Positions 13,622-47,249 of a stretch of 64,000 nucleotides of DNA are shown here, piece by piece. The number at the start of each line of letters is the position of its first letter. The first letter of the stretch is position 1. Below the pieces are notes generated by a model. That model was given only the letters and a program-made list of their open reading frames with translations, had not been told where the DNA came from and made no database searches. Origin of the DNA: Eubacteriales bacterium (GTDB taxonomy: Bacteria; Bacillota; Clostridia; Oscillospirales; CAG-272); contig JAZNXE010000026.1 of assembly GCA_045593725.1 (NCBI GenBank), forward strand, positions 20,646-84,645, in the 5' to 3' direction. A program made the translations under genes and the position numbers.

Positions 13622-13655
13622 AAAAAAGAGGAAGACCGAAGTCTTCCTCTTTTTA
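13622..13655. terminator. Bidirectional intrinsic terminator (AGAGGAAGAC-cgaa-GTCTTCCTCT flanked by A and T runs)
   Basis: A perfect 10-bp stem flanked by a run of six A on the left and five T on the right. It follows rnpB on the minus strand and the 81-aa ORF on the plus strand. Confidence 0.8.
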
Positions 13656-13658
13656 TTT

Positions 13659-14011
13659 GAACTCTATCTATAAGCCGGGTTCTGTCGTGAACGGTCATCT
13701 ATCTTTGCTTTGCGTCGCCGCAAAGCTCAAAGGCAAAAGCCTTCTGCCACCCGCGGATATACGTCGGGCAAACAATCCGCATACGGTGTTGCTTCGGATA
13801 GGGTTTACAGCAAACCTATGTTACCATAGGAGTGGGTGAGCTCTTACCTCGCCTTTCCATCCTTACCTCATACGAGGCGGTTTATTTCTGTTGCACTTTC
13901 CCGGGAGTCGCCTCCGACTGACGTTATCAGTTACCCTGCCCTGTGAAGCCCGGACTTTCCTCACGGTAATACCTTTCGGCAACATACCGCGCGACCGTTT
14001 AATAAAGTTCC
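13659..14011 (-). ncRNA. rnpB: RNase P RNA (bacterial type A)
   Basis: The minus strand contains GAGGAAAGTCCGGGCTTCACAGGGCAGGGT...GGAAAGTGCAACAGAAATAAACCGCC...ACAGAACCCGGCTTAT. The P1 stem pairs GAACUUU (5') with AGAGUUC (3'). The ends are approximate, within about 5 nt. Confidence 0.93.
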
Positions 14012-14750: not shown

Positions 14751-14905
14751 AAAACCGCACGGAAATCTCCGTGCGGTAAATTCTTCATCTTCGGTATCTC
14801 GAGCTACCAAATTGAAATCATCTCCCTACGCCGGCATTATCCGTATCAGGTTAAAGGGTTCGGCTCTCGCCATCTCAGCCATAATGGGCACCCCCGACTT
14901 CTATG
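14751..14905 (-). promoter_or_regulatory. TPP (THI-box) riboswitch with terminator expression platform
   Basis: The minus strand reads GGGGTGCCCATTATGGCTGAGATGG...ACCCTTTAACCTGATACGGATAATGCCGGCGTAGGGA. This is followed by the terminator ACCGCACGGAgatTTCCGTGCGGTTTTT (14751-14778). Confidence 0.92.
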
Positions 14906-28420: not shown

Positions 28421-29512
28421 TTAAGCCTTGGGATTCTCTTCTGCAAACTTCTTCATGAATGCGACGAGAGCCTCAACACCCTCGTAAGGCATAGCGTTGT
28501 AGATAGAAGCTCTCATTCCGCCAACAGAACGGTGACCCTTAAGGTTCTTAAGTCCTGCCTTTCCTGCCTCGGAAGCAAACTTCTTGTCAAGGTCAGCGTC
28601 GCCTGTTACGAAGGTAACGTTCATCATAGAACGGCTTTCCTTCTTAACGGGAGCCTTGTAGTAATCCTGACTGTCGAGGTAGTCGTAAAGAAGAGCTGCC
28701 TTCTTTACGTTCTTATCCTTCATAACCTCAAGACCGCCCATACCGAGTATCCACTCGTAAACCAGCTTAGCCATATAAATGGTGTAGCAAGGAGGAGTAT
28801 TGTACATAGAACCGTTCTCCGCCATAGTCTTCCACTCAAGCATTGTGGGCATCTTCTCCTCTGCGTAGTCGAGAAGGTCCTCACGAACGATAACGAGAGT
28901 AAGTCCTGCGGGAGCCATATTCTTCTGCGCGCCCGCGTAGATAACACCGAACTTGCTTACGTCAACAGGCTCGGAGATGATGCAGGAGGACATATCCGCA
29001 ACAAGGGGAATATCACCGATTTCGGGAATATAGGGATACTTTGTGCCGTAGATGGTGTTGTTGAAGCAGATGTGGAGATAAGCCGCATCTTCTCTTACCA
29101 TGTCCTTAGTAACAACGGGAACGTGGTCAAAGTTATCTTCCTTGGTGGTAGCTATGCACTTAACGTCGTAGCCCAGCTTCTGAGCCTCCTTGAATGCCTT
29201 GCCAGAGAACTGACCCGATACTACGTAGTCAGCCTTACCCGTTCTCTTGATGAGGTTGAGGGGTACTGCCGCGAACTGTGTGGATGCGCCACCCTGAAGG
29301 AAGAGCACCTTGTAGTTGTCGGGAATGTTCATAAGCTTGCGAAGCATTGCCTCAGCGTCGTTTATGATTGCTTCATAGTCCGGAGATCGGTGTGACATCT
29401 CCATAACCGACATCCCGGAAGTACCGTAGCAAACGAGCTCCGCTGCTGCTTTTTCAAGGACTTCAAGAGGTAGCATAGAAGGGCCCGCCGAAAAGTTGTA
29501 AACTCTGTTCAT
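28421..29512 (-). CDS. serC: Phosphoserine aminotransferase
   Basis: It starts MNRVYNFSAGPSMLP... and is a 363-aa class-V aminotransferase. Confidence 0.93.
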   Translation of the reverse strand: MNRVYNFSAGPSMLPLEVLEKAAAELVCYGTSGMSVMEMSHRSPDYEAIINDAEAMLRKLMNIPDNYKVLFLQGGASTQFAAVPLNLIKRTGKADYVVSGQFSGKAFKEAQKLGYDVKCIATTKEDNFDHVPVVTKDMVREDAAYLHICFNNTIYGTKYPYIPEIGDIPLVADMSSCIISEPVDVSKFGVIYAGAQKNMAPAGLTLVIVREDLLDYAEEKMPTMLEWKTMAENGSMYNTPPCYTIYMAKLVYEWILGMGGLEVMKDKNVKKAALLYDYLDSQDYYKAPVKKESRSMMNVTFVTGDADLDKKFASEAGKAGLKNLKGHRSVGGMRASIYNAMPYEGVEALVAFMKKFAEENPKA

Positions 29513-29701
29513 AATAAATGAACCTCCGTAAAATGAAATGTTTGTATCTTAAATAATATAAAAATACATCTACTATTATACTTTATTTTTAAAAATTGTC
29601 AATAGCTTTTTACTAATTTTTCGGAAAATTCGTCATTTTTTTGTCAAAGCAAAAAGACCGCGGATATACAGCTATACCACACGGTCCTTTATGCACATTT
29701 A

Positions 29702-29790
29702 TTAGTCCTTTTCCTTAACGAGTATTATATCCGCATCATACGGCAGACTCTCTATCCAATCGCAGAGTGTATGCCGTTCACCGCAAAATA
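29702..29790 (-). pseudogene. Orphan 3'-terminal fragment of a thyX-like gene (about 26 codons plus a stop), with its own terminator at about 29650-29690
   Basis: The minus-strand translation is ERHTLCDWIESLPYDADIILVKEKD*. The intact gene ends AEWHTLCDWIESLPYAKDIILVKN*. Homology is lost about 15 bp beyond the 39-bp identical core. Confidence 0.8.
29737..29775. repeat. 39-bp perfect direct repeat, copy A (CATACGGCAGACTCTCTATCCAATCGCAGAGTGTATGCC)
   Basis: It is identical to 30442-30480, 705 bp away. Confidence 0.95.
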
Positions 29791-29798
29791 CAAAAGAC

Positions 29799-30377
29799 TT
29801 ACTTCATATATGATGGCAAATACTCTGACAAAATATACTTTCGCTCATTTGCATAATCTTTTTTATTAGTTACTCCAACTTCAAAACGAGTTTTAGCAAC
29901 CTTTAACTTTTCTTCAATTTTCTTATGCTCAAGAATCGGTATTTCCTTGGACACTTTCAACAGATTAATCTCATCTTTTTCTATAAGGTTGGAAAGCCAA
30001 AGATAATCGCCAAATATAATATTATCTTTACTAACCTTCACCGTCTCCGTAAAATTATATACATCCTCAACGCTTTTCCTATATGAGCTGTTCTGACCGA
30101 TATCGTCTGTGGTATGTTTAGCGTATAAGTCCACATCTCTAGTGTCGCTTGATGGAGGTGAATCCCCTCTAAGTTCTTCATCCTTAATACACAGCATAAA
30201 GATCCCTGCCAATGGGCTACACAAAAATATAGTCAATATTCCCATCGTCTGCAATTCTTCTTTTTTTGTTGCAGTACTGAGTTTGTTAAGTGCAAGTGCC
30301 CCAACAACTATGGGGAAAATCAAAAAGAACTGTATTACCATTCCTATCCATATGAATACTTTCGCTGCTGTCTTCAT
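29799..30377 (-). CDS. Hypothetical membrane protein (192 aa): two N-terminal TM helices plus a SHOCT-like C-terminal helix
   Basis: The two TM helices are VFIWIGMVIQFFLIFPIVVGALAL and GILTIFLCSPLAGIFMLCI. The C-terminus reads EEKLKVAKTRFEVGVTNKKDYANERKYIL. The ORF is AT-rich and lies between the two repeat copies. Confidence 0.6.
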   Translation of the reverse strand: MKTAAKVFIWIGMVIQFFLIFPIVVGALALNKLSTATKKEELQTMGILTIFLCSPLAGIFMLCIKDEELRGDSPPSSDTRDVDLYAKHTTDDIGQNSSYRKSVEDVYNFTETVKVSKDNIIFGDYLWLSNLIEKDEINLLKVSKEIPILEHKKIEEKLKVAKTRFEVGVTNKKDYANERKYILSEYLPSYMK

Positions 30378-30412
30378 TTTTTGTCCTCTTTTCTATCTTT
30401 AGTATTTATATT

Positions 30413-31036
30413 TTAGTTCTTCACCAATATTATATCCTTTGCATACGGCAGACTCTCTATCCAATCGCAGAGTGTATGCCACTCCGCAAGCTTGTGAGTC
30501 CTTCTCGCGTAGTAAATATTGATTAGATTTTCGTAGTTAAGCGTTACCGTTCTCATCTGGTTATAGCTTGAGGGCAGAAGCTGTATCATATTATGCCAAG
30601 CCTGCTTATCCGTCTTATCCTCGCAGAATTTAACTCTCTCCCCTTCAAGATACGCCACAAGGGCGTCAAGCGCCGCCAGACCGCCCTCGTCAAGTCGGTC
30701 ACAGGAAAAATCCTCCCTCTCAAACGCCTTTGCGTGTATCTTGTGCATAGTACTGCAGGAGTTGGCCACCGTCCCCACCTTGTAGGTGTCAAATTCCTTC
30801 CACCAATAGAGGGGAGCTGTTATATCCACCGATACAAATATCTGTCGGAGAAATTTTCTGTGGTCACTGCCCGCGTGAGCAAGCTTCCTCGCAAGTCCGA
30901 GGTCGTTCTCTCCAAGGATATAATTTCCCTTTTCGTCGTACTCGCTATCCATTCTGCTCCAGCTATTGAGGGGATTTCTCGCTCCTCTGATAGCATTTTC
31001 AAGGTTCATTACCGAACTTCTCTCTATTTTTATCAT
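30413..31036 (-). CDS. ThyX-fold (Thy1 family) protein, divergent and without the canonical RHRxxS...SxRY motif
   Basis: By eye it aligns to Thermotoga ThyX as I remember it. GSDHRKFLRQIFVSVDITAPLYWWKEF aligns with [26 protein letters not shown], and RTVTLNYENLINIYYARRTHKLAEW aligns with [25 protein letters not shown]. The motif positions read TYK...NSCSTMH here. Confidence 0.6.
   Translation of the reverse strand: MIKIERSSVMNLENAIRGARNPLNSWSRMDSEYDEKGNYILGENDLGLARKLAHAGSDHRKFLRQIFVSVDITAPLYWWKEFDTYKVGTVANSCSTMHKIHAKAFEREDFSCDRLDEGGLAALDALVAYLEGERVKFCEDKTDKQAWHNMIQLLPSSYNQMRTVTLNYENLINIYYARRTHKLAEWHTLCDWIESLPYAKDIILVKN
30442..30480. repeat. 39-bp perfect direct repeat, copy B (inside the 3' end of the intact thyX-like gene)
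   Basis: It is identical to 29737-29775. Confidence 0.95.
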
Positions 31037-31078
31037 ATTTTCGCTCCGTATGTTGATTTTGTCCCTAATATCAATAAT

Positions 31079-31136
31079 AATATATCACATTTTAACGCAA
31101 AAGTCAATTGACTTTTAGAATAATCTGTGATATTAT
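31079..31136. promoter_or_regulatory. Symmetric back-to-back divergent promoters sharing an 18-bp perfect palindrome (AAAAGTCAATTGACTTTT, 31099-31116)
   Basis: Plus strand: TTGACT(31108-31113)-17-gTGaTATTAT(31131-31136). Minus strand: TTGACT(31102-31107)-17-gTGaTATATT(31079-31084). Confidence 0.6.
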
Positions 31137-31170
31137 TATAAGGAGATAGAATATCCAAGGAGTGTCCAAT

Positions 31171-32364
31171 ATGGAATACAAGTTTTCAAGAAAAACTGCC
31201 GACCTTAAGCCTTCGGCTATAAGAGAAATATTTAAAAGCCTTACCGACCCTACCATAATATCCTTTGCGGCGGGAAATCCCTCACCCGAGTCCTTCCCCG
31301 TCAGCGAGCTGGCAAGGCTTTCTGCAGACATATTCGAGAACCAATCAACCGCGGCTCTGCAATACGGTATTACCGAGGGATACGCTCCCCTGCGTGACGC
31401 CATAGCGGCACGTCAGAAAAAGCGCTTTGGCGAAAATATGGTCCGCGAGGATGACAGCGTTATCGTGGTATCGGGCGGTCAGCAGGGTATCGAGCTTGCT
31501 TGTAAGGTGTTCTGCAATGAGGGCGATGCCATTATCTGTGAAAATCCCAGCTTCATAGGCTCTCTCAACTCCTTCCGCTCTAACGGCGCTACTCCAGTGG
31601 GAGTTGATATGGAGGAGGACGGAATTTCCCTTTCGGGACTTGAAGAAGCTCTTAAGAATACGCCGAGCGCAAGGCTTATGTATCTCATACCCACCTTCCA
31701 TAATCCCACGGGTATTACCACAAGCCTTAGGAAGCGACTTGCCATACTTGAGCTGGCTAAAAAGTACGATATGATTATAATAGAGGATAACCCTTACGGC
31801 GAGCTGCGCTTTGCGGGTGAGGATATCCCAACTCTTAAGAGCCTTGATACCGACGGACGCGTAATTTATTGCTCCTCATTCTCAAAGATACTCTCCGCGG
31901 GTATGAGAGTCGGATTTATCGTCGCCCCCTCGGCTATCTGCTCAAAGATGGCTGTGGCAAAGCAGGGCGAGGACGTTCACACCAACGGATTTTTCCAGAT
32001 GCTCTGCTACAAATATATGACCGAATGCGACATAGACGCCCACATCGCGGGTATAAACGACCTCTACCGCAGAAAATGCAGCCTTATGCTTGAGTGTCTT
32101 GACAAGTATGTTCCCGCGGATAAGGTGACCTTTACCCGTCCCGAGGGCGGACTGTTTATCTGGGGTACTGTAAAGAATTGCGACGATGCGTCGGATATCG
32201 TAAAGAAAGCAATCGAAAAGAAGGTAGCCGTTGTTCCGGGCACGGCATTCAACTGCGATACCGAGGCGAAGTCACCCTCCTTCCGTCTTAACTATTCCAC
32301 ACCCTCGGACGAGCAAATAATAGAGGGCGTTAAGCGCCTTGGCGAAGTTTTCGCATCACTTTGA
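31171..32364 (+). CDS. PLP-dependent aminotransferase, class I/II (COG1167-like catalytic domain only)
   Basis: It starts MEYKFSRKTADLKPSAIREI and has the PLP-lysine motif SFSKILSAGMRVGF. The ATG at 31171 lies 8 nt after AAGGAG. Confidence 0.8.
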   Translation: MEYKFSRKTADLKPSAIREIFKSLTDPTIISFAAGNPSPESFPVSELARLSADIFENQSTAALQYGITEGYAPLRDAIAARQKKRFGENMVREDDSVIVVSGGQQGIELACKVFCNEGDAIICENPSFIGSLNSFRSNGATPVGVDMEEDGISLSGLEEALKNTPSARLMYLIPTFHNPTGITTSLRKRLAILELAKKYDMIIIEDNPYGELRFAGEDIPTLKSLDTDGRVIYCSSFSKILSAGMRVGFIVAPSAICSKMAVAKQGEDVHTNGFFQMLCYKYMTECDIDAHIAGINDLYRRKCSLMLECLDKYVPADKVTFTRPEGGLFIWGTVKNCDDASDIVKKAIEKKVAVVPGTAFNCDTEAKSPSFRLNYSTPSDEQIIEGVKRLGEVFASL

Positions 32365-35219: not shown

Positions 35220-35270
35220 AAACAAGAAGTCCGTTTGCAATGCAAACGTACTTCTTTCTTTACTCATTAA

Positions 35271-35321
35271 CGGGCTTCCGAATCCACGTTCAATATCCCC
35301 CACCAACAAAAAGAGGATTGC
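35271..35321 (+). repeat. 51-bp repeat copy 1: an inverted partial copy of the tRNA-Tyr T-loop/acceptor 3' end plus its terminator arm
   Basis: The sequence is CGGGCTTCCGAATCCACGTTCAATATCCCCCACCAACAAAAAGAGGATTGC. It matches 35428-35478 at 50 of 51 positions. Confidence 0.9.
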
Positions 35322-35427
35322 TTTGCAATCCTTTGTTCCCGCATTTTTCCTCAGTGCGAACCCACATAAAGTCCACGCCCTAAAAACGACACACTGTGTC
35401 GTTTTTGCGCCGCATACGCGATGCGCA

Positions 35428-35478
35428 CGGGCTTTCGAATCCACGTTCAATATCCCCCACCAACAAAAAGAGGATTGC
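35428..35478 (+). repeat. 51-bp repeat copy 2, abutting the real tRNA-Tyr gene tail to tail
   Basis: The same sequence with one C/T difference. Its right part forms the left arm of the 25-bp hairpin at 35454-35506. Confidence 0.9.
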
Positions 35479-35506
35479 AAAGCAATCCTCTTTTTGTTGG
35501 TGGGGG
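35454..35506. repeat. Perfect 25-bp-stem palindrome (CCCCCACCAACAAAAAGAGGATTGC-aaa-GCAATCCTCTTTTTGTTGGTGGGGG)
   Basis: I read it directly from the sequence. The right arm includes the last 9 nt of tRNA-Tyr (..CCCCCACCA on the minus strand). The inner part acts as the tRNA operon terminator. Confidence 0.9.
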
Positions 35507-35582
35507 ATGGTGGATTCGGACCACCGAAGTCAGTGACAACAGATTTACAGTCTGCCCCCTTTGGCCGCTCGGGAAATCCCCC
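35498..35582 (-). tRNA. tRNA-Tyr (anticodon GTA), CCA encoded
   Basis: The minus strand reads GGGGGATTTCCCGAGCGGCCAAAGGGGGCAGACTGTAAATCTGTTGTCACTGACTTCGGTGGTCCGAATCCACCATCCCCCACCA. It has a 7-bp acceptor stem, a long variable arm and the anticodon loop CU-GUA-AA. Confidence 0.92.
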
Positions 35583-35613: not shown

Positions 35614-35688
35614 TGGAGCTGGTGATCGGAGTCGAACCAACAACCTGCTGATTACAAATCAGCTGCTCTGCCATTGAGCCACACCAGC
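35614..35688 (-). tRNA. tRNA-Thr (anticodon TGT), CCA encoded
   Basis: The minus strand reads GCTGGTGTGGCTCAATGGCAGAGCAGCTGATTTGTAATCAGCAGGTTGTTGGTTCGACTCCGATCACCAGCTCCA. It folds as a cloverleaf with the anticodon loop UU-UGU-AA. Confidence 0.92.
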
Positions 35689-44977: not shown

Positions 44978-45105
44978 TGCAACATAAATCTAATATTTTA
45001 TCTAATAATAAAGGTGTGTATTTTTATTTTGGTAAAAATGCAGACTCCCTTTTTGACGCACCTTTATTAGATAAAACGTACGCTAAAAAGTAGATTTATG
45101 TTGCA
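44978..45105 (+). promoter_or_regulatory. 128-nt leader hairpin (a 15-bp perfect outer stem, an inner stem of about 20 bp with G-U pairs, and a 38-nt loop)
   Basis: The outer stem pairs TGCAACATAAATCTA (44978-44992) with TAGATTTATGTTGCA (45091-45105). The inner stem pairs 44996-45018 with 45057-45076, with a 3-nt bulge and one U-G pair that is compatible only with plus-strand RNA. Confidence 0.6.
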
Positions 45106-45128
45106 GTAAACGGAGCTATGCATTTTTC

Positions 45129-45160
45129 ATGCGCAGCTTCGTGCTGCGCATTTTTTATTT
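45129..45160 (+). terminator. Leader (attenuator-type) intrinsic terminator 20 nt upstream of the LRR gene start
   Basis: ATGCGCAGC-ttcgt-GCTGCGCAT followed by TTTTTATTT. The AGGAGGA RBS at 45167-45173 comes next. Confidence 0.7.
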
Positions 45161-45179
45161 ATCATCAGGAGGACAGAAA

Positions 45180-47249
45180 ATGAAAAGAGTTTTGGCGTGT
45201 ATTTTGGTGGCAATTATGATATTACCCCTTTTTGCTTCGTGTAATAAGGATGATGACAGCACAACGGGTACTACCGCCGCCACAAAGCAAACCTCGAATA
45301 CCGAGCAAAATAAGCCCGATAACGAGGAAAACGACAACAACGAGAACAACAAGGAAAACGAAGATAATTCAGACGAGGAAGAAAACGAGGAAAATAAAAC
45401 TCCCGAAATAGACGTTAGCCATCTTCCCGAAAGCTCAGAGGGCTTAGAGTTTGAATTAAACGACGACGGCAAAGGATATACCGTTACGGGAATTGGAACT
45501 TGCACAGATACAGAAATAGTTATCGGTAAATATAACAACTTGCCTGTTACCAGCATTGGAGGGCGTGCGTTCGAGGATTGCACAAGCCTTACCGGTATAA
45601 CCATATCCGACAGCGTCACGAGCATTGGAGATTGTGCGTTCTACAATACAGCATACTATAACAATGAATCAAATTGGGATAACGGTGTGTTGTATATTGG
45701 AAATCATTTGATAAAGGCAAAGGAAACTATATCGGGTGCATATACGGTAAAAGAAGGAACTAAAACTATTGCAGATTATGCGTTCTACGAGTGCACAGGA
45801 CTTACGAGTATAACTATACCCGACAGCGTTACGAGCATTGGAACCGTTGCGTTCGACCAGTGCACAGGACTTGAGCAAGTGCATATAAATGATATATCAA
45901 GTTGGTGTAATATTGAATTTAAATACGGTAATCCTCTCTATTACGCTAACAAATTGTATCTCAAAGGAGAACTTGTTACAAATTTGATAATACCCAACAG
46001 CGTTACCAGCATTGGAGATTATGCGTTCTACTGGTGCACAGGACTTACAAGTGTAACAATAGGCAATAGCGTCACGAGCATTGGAGATTATGCGTTCGAC
46101 CAGTGCACAGGACTTATGAGTGTAACGATAGGCAATAGCGTCACGAGCATTGGAGATTGTGCGTTCAGAGGTTGCACAGAACTTACGAGTGTAACCATAC
46201 CCGACAGCGTTACGAGCATTGGAACTGGTGCGTTCGAAGTTTGCACAGGACTTACGAGTATAACTATACCCGACGGCATCACCAGCATTGGAGATTATGC
46301 GTTCTCCAGTTGCACAGGACTTACGAGTATAACCGTATCTGAAGGAAATAGCGTTTATCACGGTAAGGGTAATTGTTTAATAGAAACTGCTACAAAAACT
46401 CTGATATCAGGCTGTAAAACGAGCGTAATCCCCACAGACGGAAGCGTTACCAGAATTGGAGCTGGAGCGTTCTGGGGTTGCGACGGACTTACCAGTATAA
46501 CTATACCCAACAGCGTTACGAGCATTGGAGAGTGGGTGTTCGCAAATTGCACAGGACTTACGAGTATAACTATACCCGACAGTGTCACGAGCATTGGAGG
46601 TAGTGCGTTCGGCCAGTGCTACGGACTTACGAGTATAACTATCCCCAACAGCGTTACGAGCATTGGAGATTATGCGTTCTACGGTTGCACAGGACTTACG
46701 AGTATAACTATACCCAACAGCGTTACAAGCATTGGATATTATGCATTCAAAGATACAGCATACTATAACAACGAATCAAATTGGGATAACGGTGTGTTGT
46801 ATATTGGAAACCATTTGATAGAGGCAAAGAAAACTATATCGGGTGCATATACGGTAAAACAAGGAACTAAAACTATTGCAGGTGCTGCGTTCGGGGGTTG
46901 CACAGGACTTACGAGTATAACTATACCCGACAGCGTTACGAGCATTGGAGTTTATGCGTTCGCCTTATGCACAGGACTTACAAGTATAACTATACCGGAC
47001 AGCGTAACGAGCATTGGAGAGTGGGCGTTCTCCAGTTGCACAGGACTTACGAGTGTAACCATACCCGACAGCATCACCAGCATTGGAGATTGTGCGTTCT
47101 GGGATTGCACAGGACTTACTACGATAAACTTCCAAGGCACAAAGGCAGAGTGGGAAACCATTGAAAAGGGGAGTTCTTGGAACAGCGGAACTGACAACTA
47201 CACTGTAAAATGCACCGACGGCGATATTGCCAAGGCGGATGATAATTAA
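45180..47249 (+). CDS. BspA-type leucine-rich-repeat (LRR_5-like) surface lipoprotein, 689 aa
   Basis: It has a lipobox (LFASC) and an acidic Asn/Glu/Asp linker. About 20 repeat units follow, of the form I(T/P)IPxSVTSIGxxAFxxCTGLTS. Confidence 0.85.
45646..45774 (+). repeat. Intragenic 129-bp duplication, copy 1 (124 of 129 identical to 46753-46881)
   Basis: I compared the two directly. Both encode [39 protein letters not shown]. Confidence 0.9.
46753..46881 (+). repeat. Intragenic 129-bp duplication, copy 2
   Basis: See copy 1. The offset is 1107 bp, which is in frame. Confidence 0.9.

What the first reader, a model, noticed from the sequence alone, without database searches (positions are those of the whole stretch)
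29702..30480. A 192-aa gene cassette bracketed by a 39-bp perfect direct repeat derived from the thyX-like 3' end (attL/attR-like scar)
The last 25 codons or so of the thyX-like gene occur twice. One copy is the real gene end (30413-30490). The other is an orphan fragment 705 bp downstream (29702-29790) that still has its stop codon and a downstream terminator-like hairpin (about 29650-29690). The two share a 39-bp identical core (29737-29775 and 30442-30480), flanked by diverged but recognisable homology. Between them lies a single AT-rich ORF encoding a 2-TM protein with a SHOCT-like tail, 35 nt behind the thyX-like stop and so co-transcribed with it. This is the footprint expected when DNA integrates into the 3' end of a gene while supplying a replacement end. 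No integrase is present, so it is either a decayed element or a cassette mobilised in trans.
Basis: partly seen in the sequence, partly recalled or inferred. Interest (0 to 1): 0.55.

Follow-up and report, generated by a model that had tools for sequence, protein, structure and literature searches.

The report
Single-gene cassette duplicating a gene end
A 705-base piece of foreign DNA carrying one small membrane-protein gene sits inside the end of a conserved gene and supplies a replacement end; some strains of this uncultured gut Clostridia population have it and others lack it, so it is a clean but fairly ordinary case of gene gain by recombination.

Summary
A 39-nt perfect repeat (29737-29775 / 30442-30480; 62 nt at 89%) brackets a 192-aa ORF. 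The downstream copy is an orphaned end of the 207-aa gene, with its own stop and the ancestral terminator.

- **Empty sites:** about 28 related species, and 13 contigs of the same population, have the gene followed directly by terminator, serC promoter and serC. One empty allele is 99.6% identical to a filled one.
- **Recurrence:** four other metagenome contigs carry the same insertion in at least three diverged backgrounds.
- **Age:** cassette DNA is nearly identical between backgrounds (dS 0.017). The adjacent gene has dS 0.32-1.13, and the orphan tail is only 71% identical.
- **Foreign origin:** the cassette is low-GC and has no promoter or terminator. It is found nowhere else, including phages, plasmids and integrase neighbourhoods.
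- **Mechanism:** recombination end points fall in the repeated segment but not at one fixed point. This favours homologous (Campbell-type) exchange over a dedicated integrase; a recombinase acting in trans is not excluded.
- **Labels:** "thyX-like" holds at fold level only. The SHOCT-like tail rests only on alignment to longer paralogues.

Verdict: a genuine, recently spread accessory cassette of a known footprint type. Moderate-to-low interest.

The parts
30413..31036 (-). 207-aa ThyX-fold gene (target gene). Its last 9 codons plus stop (30413-30441) are supplied by the cassette.
   Evidence: ORF. More than 8000 homologues and 3770 clusters at 50% identity. PHROG 6721, E 4e-72. No Pfam or NCBIfam hit. 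AF2 pLDDT 94 with Foldseek hits only to ThyX, TM 0.65-0.71.
31079..31107 (-). Promoter-like site upstream of the 207-aa gene (TTGACT-17-TATATT with TG). Presumed to drive both that gene and orf192.
   Evidence: Consensus scan, 10 of 12 matches. Its function is inferred.
30442..30480 (-). Left copy of the 39-nt perfect repeat, inside the intact gene (codons ...W-HTLCDWIESLPY...). Extended imperfect repeat 30419-30480.
30413..30441 (-). Cassette-borne replacement gene end (…AKDIILVKN*). Identical in three backgrounds and different from each host's own tail.
   Evidence: 0/29 differences WIN/L081/L082 and 1/29 vs L083. Host tails differ.
30378..30412 (-). 35-nt spacer with an AGAGGA ribosome-binding site. 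No terminator, so orf192 is read as co-transcribed.
29799..30377 (-). orf192: 192-aa protein with two N-terminal TM helices, a variable linker (codons 67-107) and a SHOCT-like C-terminal tail.
29776..29798 (-). Right arm of the cassette: 23 nt between the orf192 stop and the right repeat copy.
   Evidence: Identical in WIN, L081 and L082; 3 differences in L083.
29737..29775 (-). Right copy of the 39-nt perfect repeat, forming the start of the orphan fragment. Extended imperfect repeat 29714-29775.
29702..29736 (-). Orphan tail: the displaced original end of the gene (…DADIILVKEKD*, stop 29702-29704). It is lineage-specific host DNA.
   Evidence: Orphan tail plus terminator is 71% identical WIN/L081, while L081's is 92% identical to the functional tail of the empty allele L095. 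The L081 orphan encodes the same …VKEKSE* end as the intact protein P0002.
29651..29690 (-). Ancestral intrinsic terminator of the 207-aa gene, now ending the two-gene transcript.
   Evidence: RNA fold -26.3 kcal/mol, z -4.3, followed by a U-run. Terminator hairpins occupy the same place in the empty sites.
29575..29602 (-). serC promoter (TTGACA-16-TATAAT). It marks the conserved right-hand border of the site.
   Evidence: 12 of 12 consensus matches. Aligned and conserved in empty sites.
28421..29512 (-). serC (phosphoserine aminotransferase), the conserved downstream neighbour.
   Evidence: Pfam Aminotran_5, E 1.7e-47. Synteny.

Best explanation
**What it is.** A compact piece of foreign DNA was recombined into the last ~25 codons of a conserved ThyX-fold gene. 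It has 666 bp of unique sequence and adds 705 bp net. It consists of a replacement gene end, a 35-nt spacer with a ribosome-binding site, one 192-aa membrane-protein gene, and 23 nt of trailing sequence.

**What the insertion did.** The cassette carries its own ~75-nt copy of the gene end. The host gene therefore stays intact, with a slightly different C-terminus (…AKDIILVKN instead of …DADIILVKEKD). The original end, with its terminator, was pushed 705 bp downstream as a dead fragment. The cassette has no promoter or terminator of its own. orf192 is read as expressed by read-through from the host gene's promoter and ended by the host gene's old terminator (inferred).

**How it spreads.** The insertion arose once, recently. 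It now segregates as a presence/absence allele in a recombining population of uncultured gut Clostridia (MAG titles: Oscillospiraceae/Eubacteriales). It reaches new backgrounds, or is lost from them, by homologous recombination through the 40-56-nt gene-end repeat. This could be Campbell-type insertion or loop-out of a circle, or equivalently exchange of flanks ending at the repeat. No dedicated integrase is required.

**Shown:** the insertion, the empty sites, foreign composition, recurrence in diverged backgrounds, much younger cassette than flanks, and end points within the repeat.

**Inferred:** RecA-type mechanism, co-transcription, and a single origin.

**Function of orf192.** The best guess is a small oligomerising membrane protein related to SHOCT-tailed accessory proteins found in mobile or defence-type neighbourhoods. 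Its role is unknown.
For: **Empty sites**
- About 28 species-level genomes have gene, then a 120-350-nt spacer, then serC. The spacer was read as terminator plus serC promoter in the six closest loci. None has orf192 or a duplicated end.
- 13 contigs of the same population carry the intact 210-aa allele P0002, followed after 187 nt by serC.
- The filled contig L083 differs from the empty L095 by 2/556 nt in the gene body.

**Recurrence**
- The identical junctions occur in L081, L082, L083 and L104.

**Cassette younger than flanks**
- orf192 dS is 0.017 (WIN/L081), against 0.32 for the adjacent gene.
- For WIN/L083, orf192 dS is 0.01-0.10 outside the variable patch, against 1.13 for the adjacent gene.
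- Nucleotide identity is 99.6-100% in the cassette, 93% or 85% in the gene body, and 71% in the orphan tail plus terminator.

**Orphan tail is host DNA**
- L081's orphan tail plus terminator is 92% identical to the functional tail and terminator of L095, and encodes the same …VKEKSE* end as P0002.

**Foreign, compact, promoterless**
- GC is 31-40% against about 50%.
- No promoter or terminator hits lie on the coding strand inside the cassette.

**Crossover position is not fixed**
- In L083 the left junction keeps host-specific bases through GCG, so the switch lies in AAGGATAT.
- In L081 the right junction switches in the same interval.
- In the window the host tail already differs at that point (GATGCG vs GCAAAG), so the switch must lie inside the 39-nt core (alignments).

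**No recombinase or transposon signature**
- No recombinase in the window or in the syntenic neighbourhood.
- No terminal inverted repeats at the cassette ends.
Against: - Only five filled contigs exist, and only three show the right junction (L083 is cut inside it). Crossover mapping therefore rests on very few informative sites, and it assumes the incoming cassette carried the WIN/L081-type core.
- In L083 both repeat copies carry host-type bases. That needs either gene conversion or a donor of the same lineage.
- A 39-56-nt segment is a short substrate for RecA-dependent recombination.
- The first insertion event is not explained by homologous recombination alone. The cassette must already have carried a gene-end copy, which is exactly what site-specific elements do.
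- The empty allele of the window's own lineage was not found.
- Lower diversity in a rare accessory segment is also expected if flanks were overwritten by imports around a resident cassette. That is formally the same process seen from the other side, and I cannot tell the two apart.
Confidence: 0.55

Rival explanations
1. The repeats are true attL/attR sites. The cassette would be a minimal cis-mobilisable element (CIME-like): either the decayed remnant of an integrative element that targets the 3' end of the ThyX-fold gene, or a cassette moved in trans by a tyrosine or serine recombinase encoded elsewhere in the genome.
For: - The cassette carries a ~75-nt mimic of the target gene's end. Identity is concentrated in a central core and the homology is diverged on both sides. 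This is the classical attP/attB layout of elements that integrate into gene ends.
- Empty and filled alleles coexist.
- Recombination end points lie within the repeat in every background.
- The core contains an imperfect dyad, GGCAtACaCTCT-10 nt-AGAGaGTcTGCC (sequence; weak DNA hairpin).
Against: - No integrase lies in the 64-kb window or in syntenic loci.
- No element with an integrase sits downstream of this gene in 80 related species, and none of them has a second gene-end copy.
- The cassette and its protein occur only at this site. They are never next to a recombinase, and never in phage, plasmid or IMG/VR collections.
- Inferred crossover intervals are not the same in the window as in L081 and L083.
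- The dyad's fold is not significant (z -1.9), and it lies in coding sequence.
Confidence: 0.25
2. This was a one-off accident with no continuing mobility. For example, a larger replicon carrying a paralogue of the ThyX-fold gene (phages do carry them) integrated by a single homologous crossover and was then almost wholly deleted. Homology-facilitated illegitimate recombination is another possibility. The present distribution would reflect only vertical descent plus ordinary recombination of the flanks.
For: - Phage homologues of the 207-aa protein exist (PHROG 6721; 19 phage records).
- All five copies share the same right junction, which fits a single founding event.
- The population is visibly mosaic. 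For example, the serC 5' region is 85% identical WIN/L081 but 98% WIN/L095.
Against: - orf192 has no phage or plasmid relative.
- The filled allele L083 and the empty allele L095 are 99.6% identical in the gene body, so gain or loss has happened very recently in that lineage, not only at the founding event.
- The tight coincidence of identity breaks with the repeat on both sides requires recombination at the repeat itself.
Confidence: 0.15
3. The arrangement is a local tandem duplication of the gene end with a spurious or de novo ORF between the copies, or an assembly artefact.
For: Direct repeats 705 bp apart can arise by duplication. The C-terminal 122 residues of orf192 have no homologue outside the cassette.
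Against: - Five independent assemblies from several samples share the structure.
- The 39-nt repeat is shorter than the final assembly k-mer implied by the contig names (k141).
- The N-terminal 70 residues of orf192 are 55-65% identical to a family of ~298-aa membrane proteins.
- orf192 evolves under purifying selection outside the linker (dN 0-0.03).
- GC is 10-15 points below the flanks.
- The replacement end differs from the host's own tail.
Confidence: 0.03

Closest known systems
Prophage e14 (and phage 21) integrated in the 3' end of icd in Escherichia coli (from my own knowledge, not checked here)
   Same: Integration inside the end of a protein-coding gene. The element supplies a slightly different replacement end, so the gene stays functional. 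The displaced original end remains as an orphan fragment at the far junction.
   Different: e14 is a ~15-kb prophage remnant with its own integrase and a defined crossover site. Here the insert is 0.7 kb with one promoterless gene and no recombinase, and the switch points do not coincide.
CIMEs (cis-mobilisable elements): att-flanked remnants of ICEs/IMEs that have lost their integration and transfer genes, often at the 3' end of a target gene (definition in PMC5704250)
   Same: [quoted passage not shown] Presence/absence polymorphism between strains.
   Different: A CIME is defined relative to a cognate ICE/IME whose integrase recognises its att sites. No such element was found for this site in 80 related species or in any context of the cassette's protein. 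The size (0.7 kb, single ORF) is far below described CIMEs.
Integron gene cassettes
   Same: A roughly 0.7-kb promoterless single ORF with minimal non-coding DNA, expressed from an upstream promoter and bounded by a recombination sequence.
   Different: No attC-type imperfect palindrome with GTTRRRY core sites, no IntI or attI, and no cassette array. The bounding repeats are direct copies of a coding gene's end.
C-terminal displacement with orphan modules in Rhs/CDI polymorphic-toxin loci (from my own knowledge)
   Same: The same topology. An incoming segment recombines in the conserved part of a gene and brings a new end plus a downstream gene. The old end is left downstream as an orphan that keeps a stretch of homology usable for further recombination.
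   Different: Only 9-12 C-terminal residues are replaced. There is no toxin domain and no immunity-gene logic, and the target is a ThyX-fold protein.
SHOCT-tailed multi-pass membrane proteins of ~298 aa (P0123-P0142; SHOCT domain described in PMC3581485)
   Same: The N-terminal two TM helices of orf192 are 55-65% identical to them, and the C-terminal ~35 residues align with their SHOCT domain.
   Different: orf192 lacks their central four TM segments. Its residues 70-190 have no other homologue, and its tail does not reach any Pfam SHOCT threshold.

Membership tests
Site-specific integrative element scar / CIME | [quoted passage not shown] | tested here: met
   39-nt perfect and 62-nt imperfect repeat of the gene end.
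Site-specific integrative element scar / CIME | Empty sites in relatives with one copy of the repeat | tested here: met
   About 28 species plus 13 same-population contigs.
Site-specific integrative element scar / CIME | A cognate integrase-bearing element using the same att site | tested here: not met
   None downstream of the gene in 80 species. The cassette protein is never next to a recombinase. The only recombinase context found (L084) belongs to a distant paralogue without gene-end repeats.
Site-specific integrative element scar / CIME | Strand exchange at one fixed short overlap region | tested here: inconclusive
   Switch intervals differ (window: inside the core; L081 and L083: in AAGGATAT just right of it). 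This rests on few sites and three backgrounds.
Site-specific integrative element scar / CIME | Excised circular form | not testable with these tools
   Needs raw reads or PCR.
Integron gene cassette | attC recombination site, with IntI and attI nearby | tested here: not met
   No terminal palindrome at the cassette ends, no tyrosine-recombinase motif in the window, and no Rfam hit in 29500-31200. No dedicated attC model was available.
IS / MITE / transposon | Terminal inverted repeats, a short target-site duplication, and a transposase | tested here: not met
   No inverted repeats joining the two cassette ends. The duplication is 39-62 nt and extends as diverged homology. There is no transposase.
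ThyX (flavin-dependent thymidylate synthase, Pfam Thy1 PF02511) | Sequence match above the Pfam threshold | tested here: not met
   0 Pfam families for the window protein. Thy1 hits only 8 of 46 family members, best E 3e-4. The PDB profile search gives ThyX at E 0.62 only.
ThyX (flavin-dependent thymidylate synthase, Pfam Thy1 PF02511) | ThyX fold | tested here: met
   AF2 pLDDT 93.9. The 50 listed Foldseek PDB hits are ThyX, apart from one ThyX-like UMP/dUMP methylase (PolB). TM 0.65-0.71, E 6.5e-9.
ThyX (flavin-dependent thymidylate synthase, Pfam Thy1 PF02511) | ThyX motif RHR(x7)S and the dUMP-binding arginines | not tested
   By eye the corresponding stretch reads TYKVGTVANSCSTMH, which suggests the arginines are lost. 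No residue-level structural alignment was made.
SHOCT domain protein (PF09851 / PF20612) | Pfam match in the C-terminal tail | tested here: inconclusive
   No hit for the orf192 tail even at E 10. It does align column for column with the SHOCT regions of paralogues (P0124 SHOCT_2 at E 1.4e-5, above threshold).

The most novel reading that the evidence does not exclude
The cassette could represent an unrecognised way of moving genes: integrase-free, promoterless single-gene cassettes that carry a short mimic of the end of a conserved host gene. They would insert behind that gene by host recombination (or by a still unknown recombinase that reads the dyad in the core). They would be expressed by hitch-hiking on its transcript and would repair the gene they interrupt. 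That would be functionally an integron-like cassette economy without an integron.
Probability: 0.1. Interest if true: 0.65.

Novelty: new member of a known kind. Interest (0 to 1): 0.3.

Why it matters
The locus gives a very clean natural before/after pair. The filled and empty alleles are 99.6% identical in the flank, for an insertion that repairs the gene it enters. It also shows a 20- to 100-fold contrast in synonymous divergence between the cassette and its flanks.

This is useful as a worked example of how small accessory genes enter operon ends in uncultured gut Clostridia. It is also a caution that attL/attR-like repeats need not imply an integrase.

If more such cassettes were found behind other conserved genes, it would point to a general, integrase-independent route of gene gain. 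As a single locus in one population, carrying a gene of unknown function, its importance is modest.

Side value: the target gene belongs to a very large, unannotated ThyX-fold family (3770 clusters at 50% identity, no Pfam model) that deserves a family description.

Tried and rejected
- **Other copies of the cassette.** I searched for the cassette or its protein elsewhere.
  - The 5.8-billion-protein search gave only P0121 and P0122 as full-length hits.
  - The C-terminal 122 aa alone gave the same two.
  - JGI metagenomes gave only N-terminal paralogues.
  - IMG/VR, the phage collection and the plasmid collection gave nothing.
- **Repeats around paralogues.** I looked for gene-end duplications or flanking direct repeats around the 298-aa paralogues. 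None was found.
- **Second copies in other species.** I looked for a second gene-end copy downstream of the gene in 80 species, using an exact 14-mer test and a peptide-motif test. None was found.
- **Larger inserts at the same spacer.** L001, L003, L004, L034, L038 and L066 carry unrelated genes or rearrangements there, with no duplicated end and no integrase. L034 has an IS200/RAYT-like gene.
- **"…VKN*" alleles as a source.** Alleles that naturally end in …VKN* (L006, P0018/L105) were checked as a possible source of the replacement end. Codon usage and downstream DNA are unrelated.
- **Core as a conserved hot spot.** It is not. It ranks 405 of 580 among 39-nt windows of the gene across species.
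- **Core dyad as a structured site.** The DNA fold gives z -1.9, which is not significant.
- **RNA, IS and defence signatures.**
  - Rfam hits in the region: none.
  - Terminal inverted repeats: none.
  - PADLOC: only a weak "2TM effector" hit at E 0.008.
- **First structure model.** The model built on a shallow alignment was unusable (pLDDT 55), so I repeated it with diverse representatives.
Full report
**1. Observation**

All genes discussed lie on the minus strand. The direct repeat is real. It covers 29714-29775 and 30419-30480 (62 nt, 89%), 705 nt apart. The perfect 39-nt core lies at 29737-29775 and 30442-30480. The core occurs only twice in the 64 kb at up to 3 mismatches, against 0.00 expected by chance.

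The upstream copy is the true end of a 207-aa ORF (30413-31036), reading ...EWHTLCDWIESLPYAKDIILVKN*. The downstream copy reads ...HTLCDWIESLPYDADIILVKEKD*, with its own stop at 29702-29704. It has no start codon and is not part of any longer ORF. A strong intrinsic terminator follows it at 29651-29690 (-26.3 kcal/mol, z -4.3). After that comes a perfect sigma-70-type serC promoter (29575-29602) and then serC.

Between the copies lies one 192-aa ORF (29799-30377). It starts 35 nt after the upstream stop, behind an AGAGGA site, and no terminator-like site separates the two genes. This stretch is 31-40% GC, against about 50% in the neighbouring genes.

**2. The two genes**

*The 207-aa protein.* It has no Pfam, NCBIfam or PDB sequence match. 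It matches PHROG 6721, of unknown function, at E 4e-72. Its family is very large: more than 8000 close hits and 3770 clusters at 50% identity.
- With a diverse alignment, AlphaFold gives pLDDT 93.9.
- The 50 listed Foldseek matches in the PDB are flavin-dependent thymidylate synthases (ThyX), apart from one ThyX-like UMP/dUMP methylase (PolB). TM is 0.65-0.71 and E about 1e-8, at 14-18% identity.
- Pfam Thy1 weakly hits 8 of 46 family members.

So "thyX-like" is right for the fold. Membership of the enzyme family is not shown.

*orf192.* It has two N-terminal TM helices. Its first ~70 residues are 55-65% identical to a family of ~298-aa multi-pass membrane proteins whose C-termini are SHOCT domains.
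- The orf192 tail aligns with those SHOCT segments but scores nothing in Pfam itself.
- Residues 70-192 have no homologue other than the two cassette variants among 5.8 billion proteins.

**3. Empty sites**

A scan of one genome per species returned 80 loci with the 207-aa gene.
- In about 28 of them the gene is followed after 120-350 nt by serC. In the six closest loci that spacer reads as a terminator hairpin plus the conserved serC promoter.
- None contains orf192 or a second gene-end copy.

Within the same population as the window, the intact 210-aa allele P0002 ends …AKDIILVKEKSE*. It sits on 13 contigs with identical synteny (tkt, trpS, aminotransferase, gene, serC, serA, gdh) and a 187-nt spacer.

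Relatives do not all share the arrangement, and the fragment is not part of a longer gene.

**4. Recurrence and age**

The same insertion, with the same two junctions, is present in four further metagenome contigs: L081, L082, L083 and L104. These represent different genetic backgrounds.

| Segment | WIN/L081 | WIN/L083 |
|---|---|---|
| Gene body, nt identity | 93% | 85% |
| Cassette, nt identity | 99.6-100% | 98% (outside a 120-nt patch) |
| Orphan tail plus terminator, nt identity | 71% | not available (contig cut) |
| orf192 dS | 0.017 | 0.01-0.10 (outside the patch) |
| 207-aa gene dS | 0.32 | 1.13 |

Identities are and dS values.

L081's orphan tail plus terminator is 92% identical to the functional tail and terminator of the empty allele L095, and its orphan encodes the same …VKEKSE* end as P0002. 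The filled contig L083 differs from the empty L095 by only 2 of 556 nt in the gene body, which makes them a genuine filled/empty pair.

The cassette is therefore far younger than the DNA on either side of it, and the orphan tail is host DNA of each lineage. The breaks in identity coincide with the repeat on both sides.

**5. Mechanism**

The cassette is bounded by a replacement gene end (30413-30441) and a 23-nt right arm (29776-29798). Both are constant between backgrounds. Joined through the core, they form a ~75-nt mimic of the gene's end. That is the layout of elements that integrate into gene ends.

Nothing points to a dedicated recombinase, however:
- The window and the syntenic loci contain only housekeeping genes, and no tyrosine-recombinase motif.
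- No integrase-bearing element sits behind this gene in 80 species.
- The cassette is never seen elsewhere.
- It has no terminal inverted repeats.

Lineage-specific bases give the switch points:
- In L083 the left junction keeps host bases through GCG, so the switch lies in AAGGATAT.
- In L081 the right junction switches in the same interval.
- In the window the host tail already differs there (GATGCG against GCAAAG), so the switch must lie inside the 39-nt core.

Variable switch points within a shared 40-56-nt segment are what homologous recombination gives. The route could be Campbell-type insertion or loop-out of a circle. Equivalently, imported flanks could stop where homology is interrupted by the cassette. 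I cannot distinguish "cassette enters new backgrounds" from "backgrounds are replaced around a resident cassette"; both are homologous exchange at the repeat.

The very first event, which created a cassette already carrying a gene-end copy, remains unexplained. It is the strongest argument for an ancestral site-specific element. My weights are: homologous exchange of a once-inserted foreign cassette 0.55, trans-acting site-specific recombination 0.25, one-off accident with no further gain or loss 0.15, artefact or local duplication 0.03.

**6. Expression logic (inferred)**

The cassette has neither a promoter nor a terminator. It sits exactly between the coding end of the 207-aa gene and that gene's terminator. 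orf192 should therefore be transcribed from the promoter-like site at 31079-31107 and terminated at 29651-29690. The host protein's C-terminus changes from …DADIILVKEKD to …AKDIILVKN. Both fall within the natural variation of the family.

**7. Comparison with known systems**

The footprint matches gene-end integration with a supplied replacement end (e14 in icd, from my own knowledge) and integrase-less att-flanked CIMEs (definition in PMC5704250). The cassette's compact promoterless form recalls integron cassettes. Its topology recalls C-terminal displacement with orphan modules in Rhs/CDI loci.

Membership fails or is unproven in each case. There is no cognate integrase element, no attC or IntI, no inverted repeats or transposase, and no toxin/immunity logic. 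I file it as a new member of the known kind "accessory insertion flanked by a duplicated gene end". It is unusually small and probably integrase-independent.

**8. Limits**

- There are five filled contigs, three with the right junction.
- The window's own empty allele was not found.
- No reads were available to look for circles.
- The function of orf192 is unknown. PADLOC gives only a weak "2TM effector" hit at E 0.008.

**9. Verdict**

The insertion with gene-end replacement and the empty sites hold. An attL/attR scar of site-specific recombination is not shown and is less likely than homologous exchange. Interest 0.3.

Noticed in passing
window 35270-35337 and 35427-35494 (next to tRNA-Tyr 35498-35582 and tRNA-Thr 35614-35688, minus strand): A 68-nt direct repeat (91%, 157 nt apart) lies immediately downstream of tRNA-Tyr. 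Each copy holds a terminator-like palindrome plus an inverted copy of the tRNA-Tyr 3' end (tggtgggggat...). It could be another recombination relic or a structured spacer.
   Followed up: partly
window 30413-31036 (and family P0001-P0295): The target gene belongs to a very large, unannotated ThyX-fold family. It has no Pfam or NCBIfam model, forms 3770 clusters at 50% identity, and has phage copies in PHROG 6721. It is often syntenic with serC-serA in gut Clostridia. The ThyX RHR motif position appears to read TYK, so it may not be a thymidylate synthase.
   Followed up: partly
L034 4630-5366; L001 3906-6002; L003 4685-7614; L066 and L073 spacers: The spacer between the ThyX-fold gene and serC is a recurrent insertion point in related species. 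L034 has an IS200/RAYT-like 178-aa gene. L001 has a 698-aa secreted-looking protein, and L003 has two large hypothetical proteins on the opposite strand. None has a duplicated gene end.
   Followed up: partly
window 30060-30179 (orf192 codons 67-107): The linker after TM2 is a diverged patch between the two cassette variants (70% nt identity, dS 0.74, dN 0.30). It is flanked by 98-100% identical DNA, which suggests a recombined or fast-evolving segment.
   Followed up: partly
window 45087-47249 (+): A 720-aa ORF with a lipoprotein-like N-terminus contains about 69-nt periodic internal repeats and a 300-nt duplication 1107 nt apart.
   Followed up: no
window 13655-14010 (-) and 14806-14905 (-): RNase P RNA (class A, 247 bits) and a TPP riboswitch, in the ORF-poor stretch 12.5-14.9 kb.
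   Followed up: no
L084 1750-9289; L085 1-5025: The 298-aa SHOCT-tailed paralogues of orf192 sit in mobile or defence-type neighbourhoods. L084 has a large serine recombinase, HTH regulators, a second SHOCT protein and a PARG-like gene. L085 lies next to an N6/N4 methyltransferase and a DEAD/ResIII helicase.
   Followed up: no
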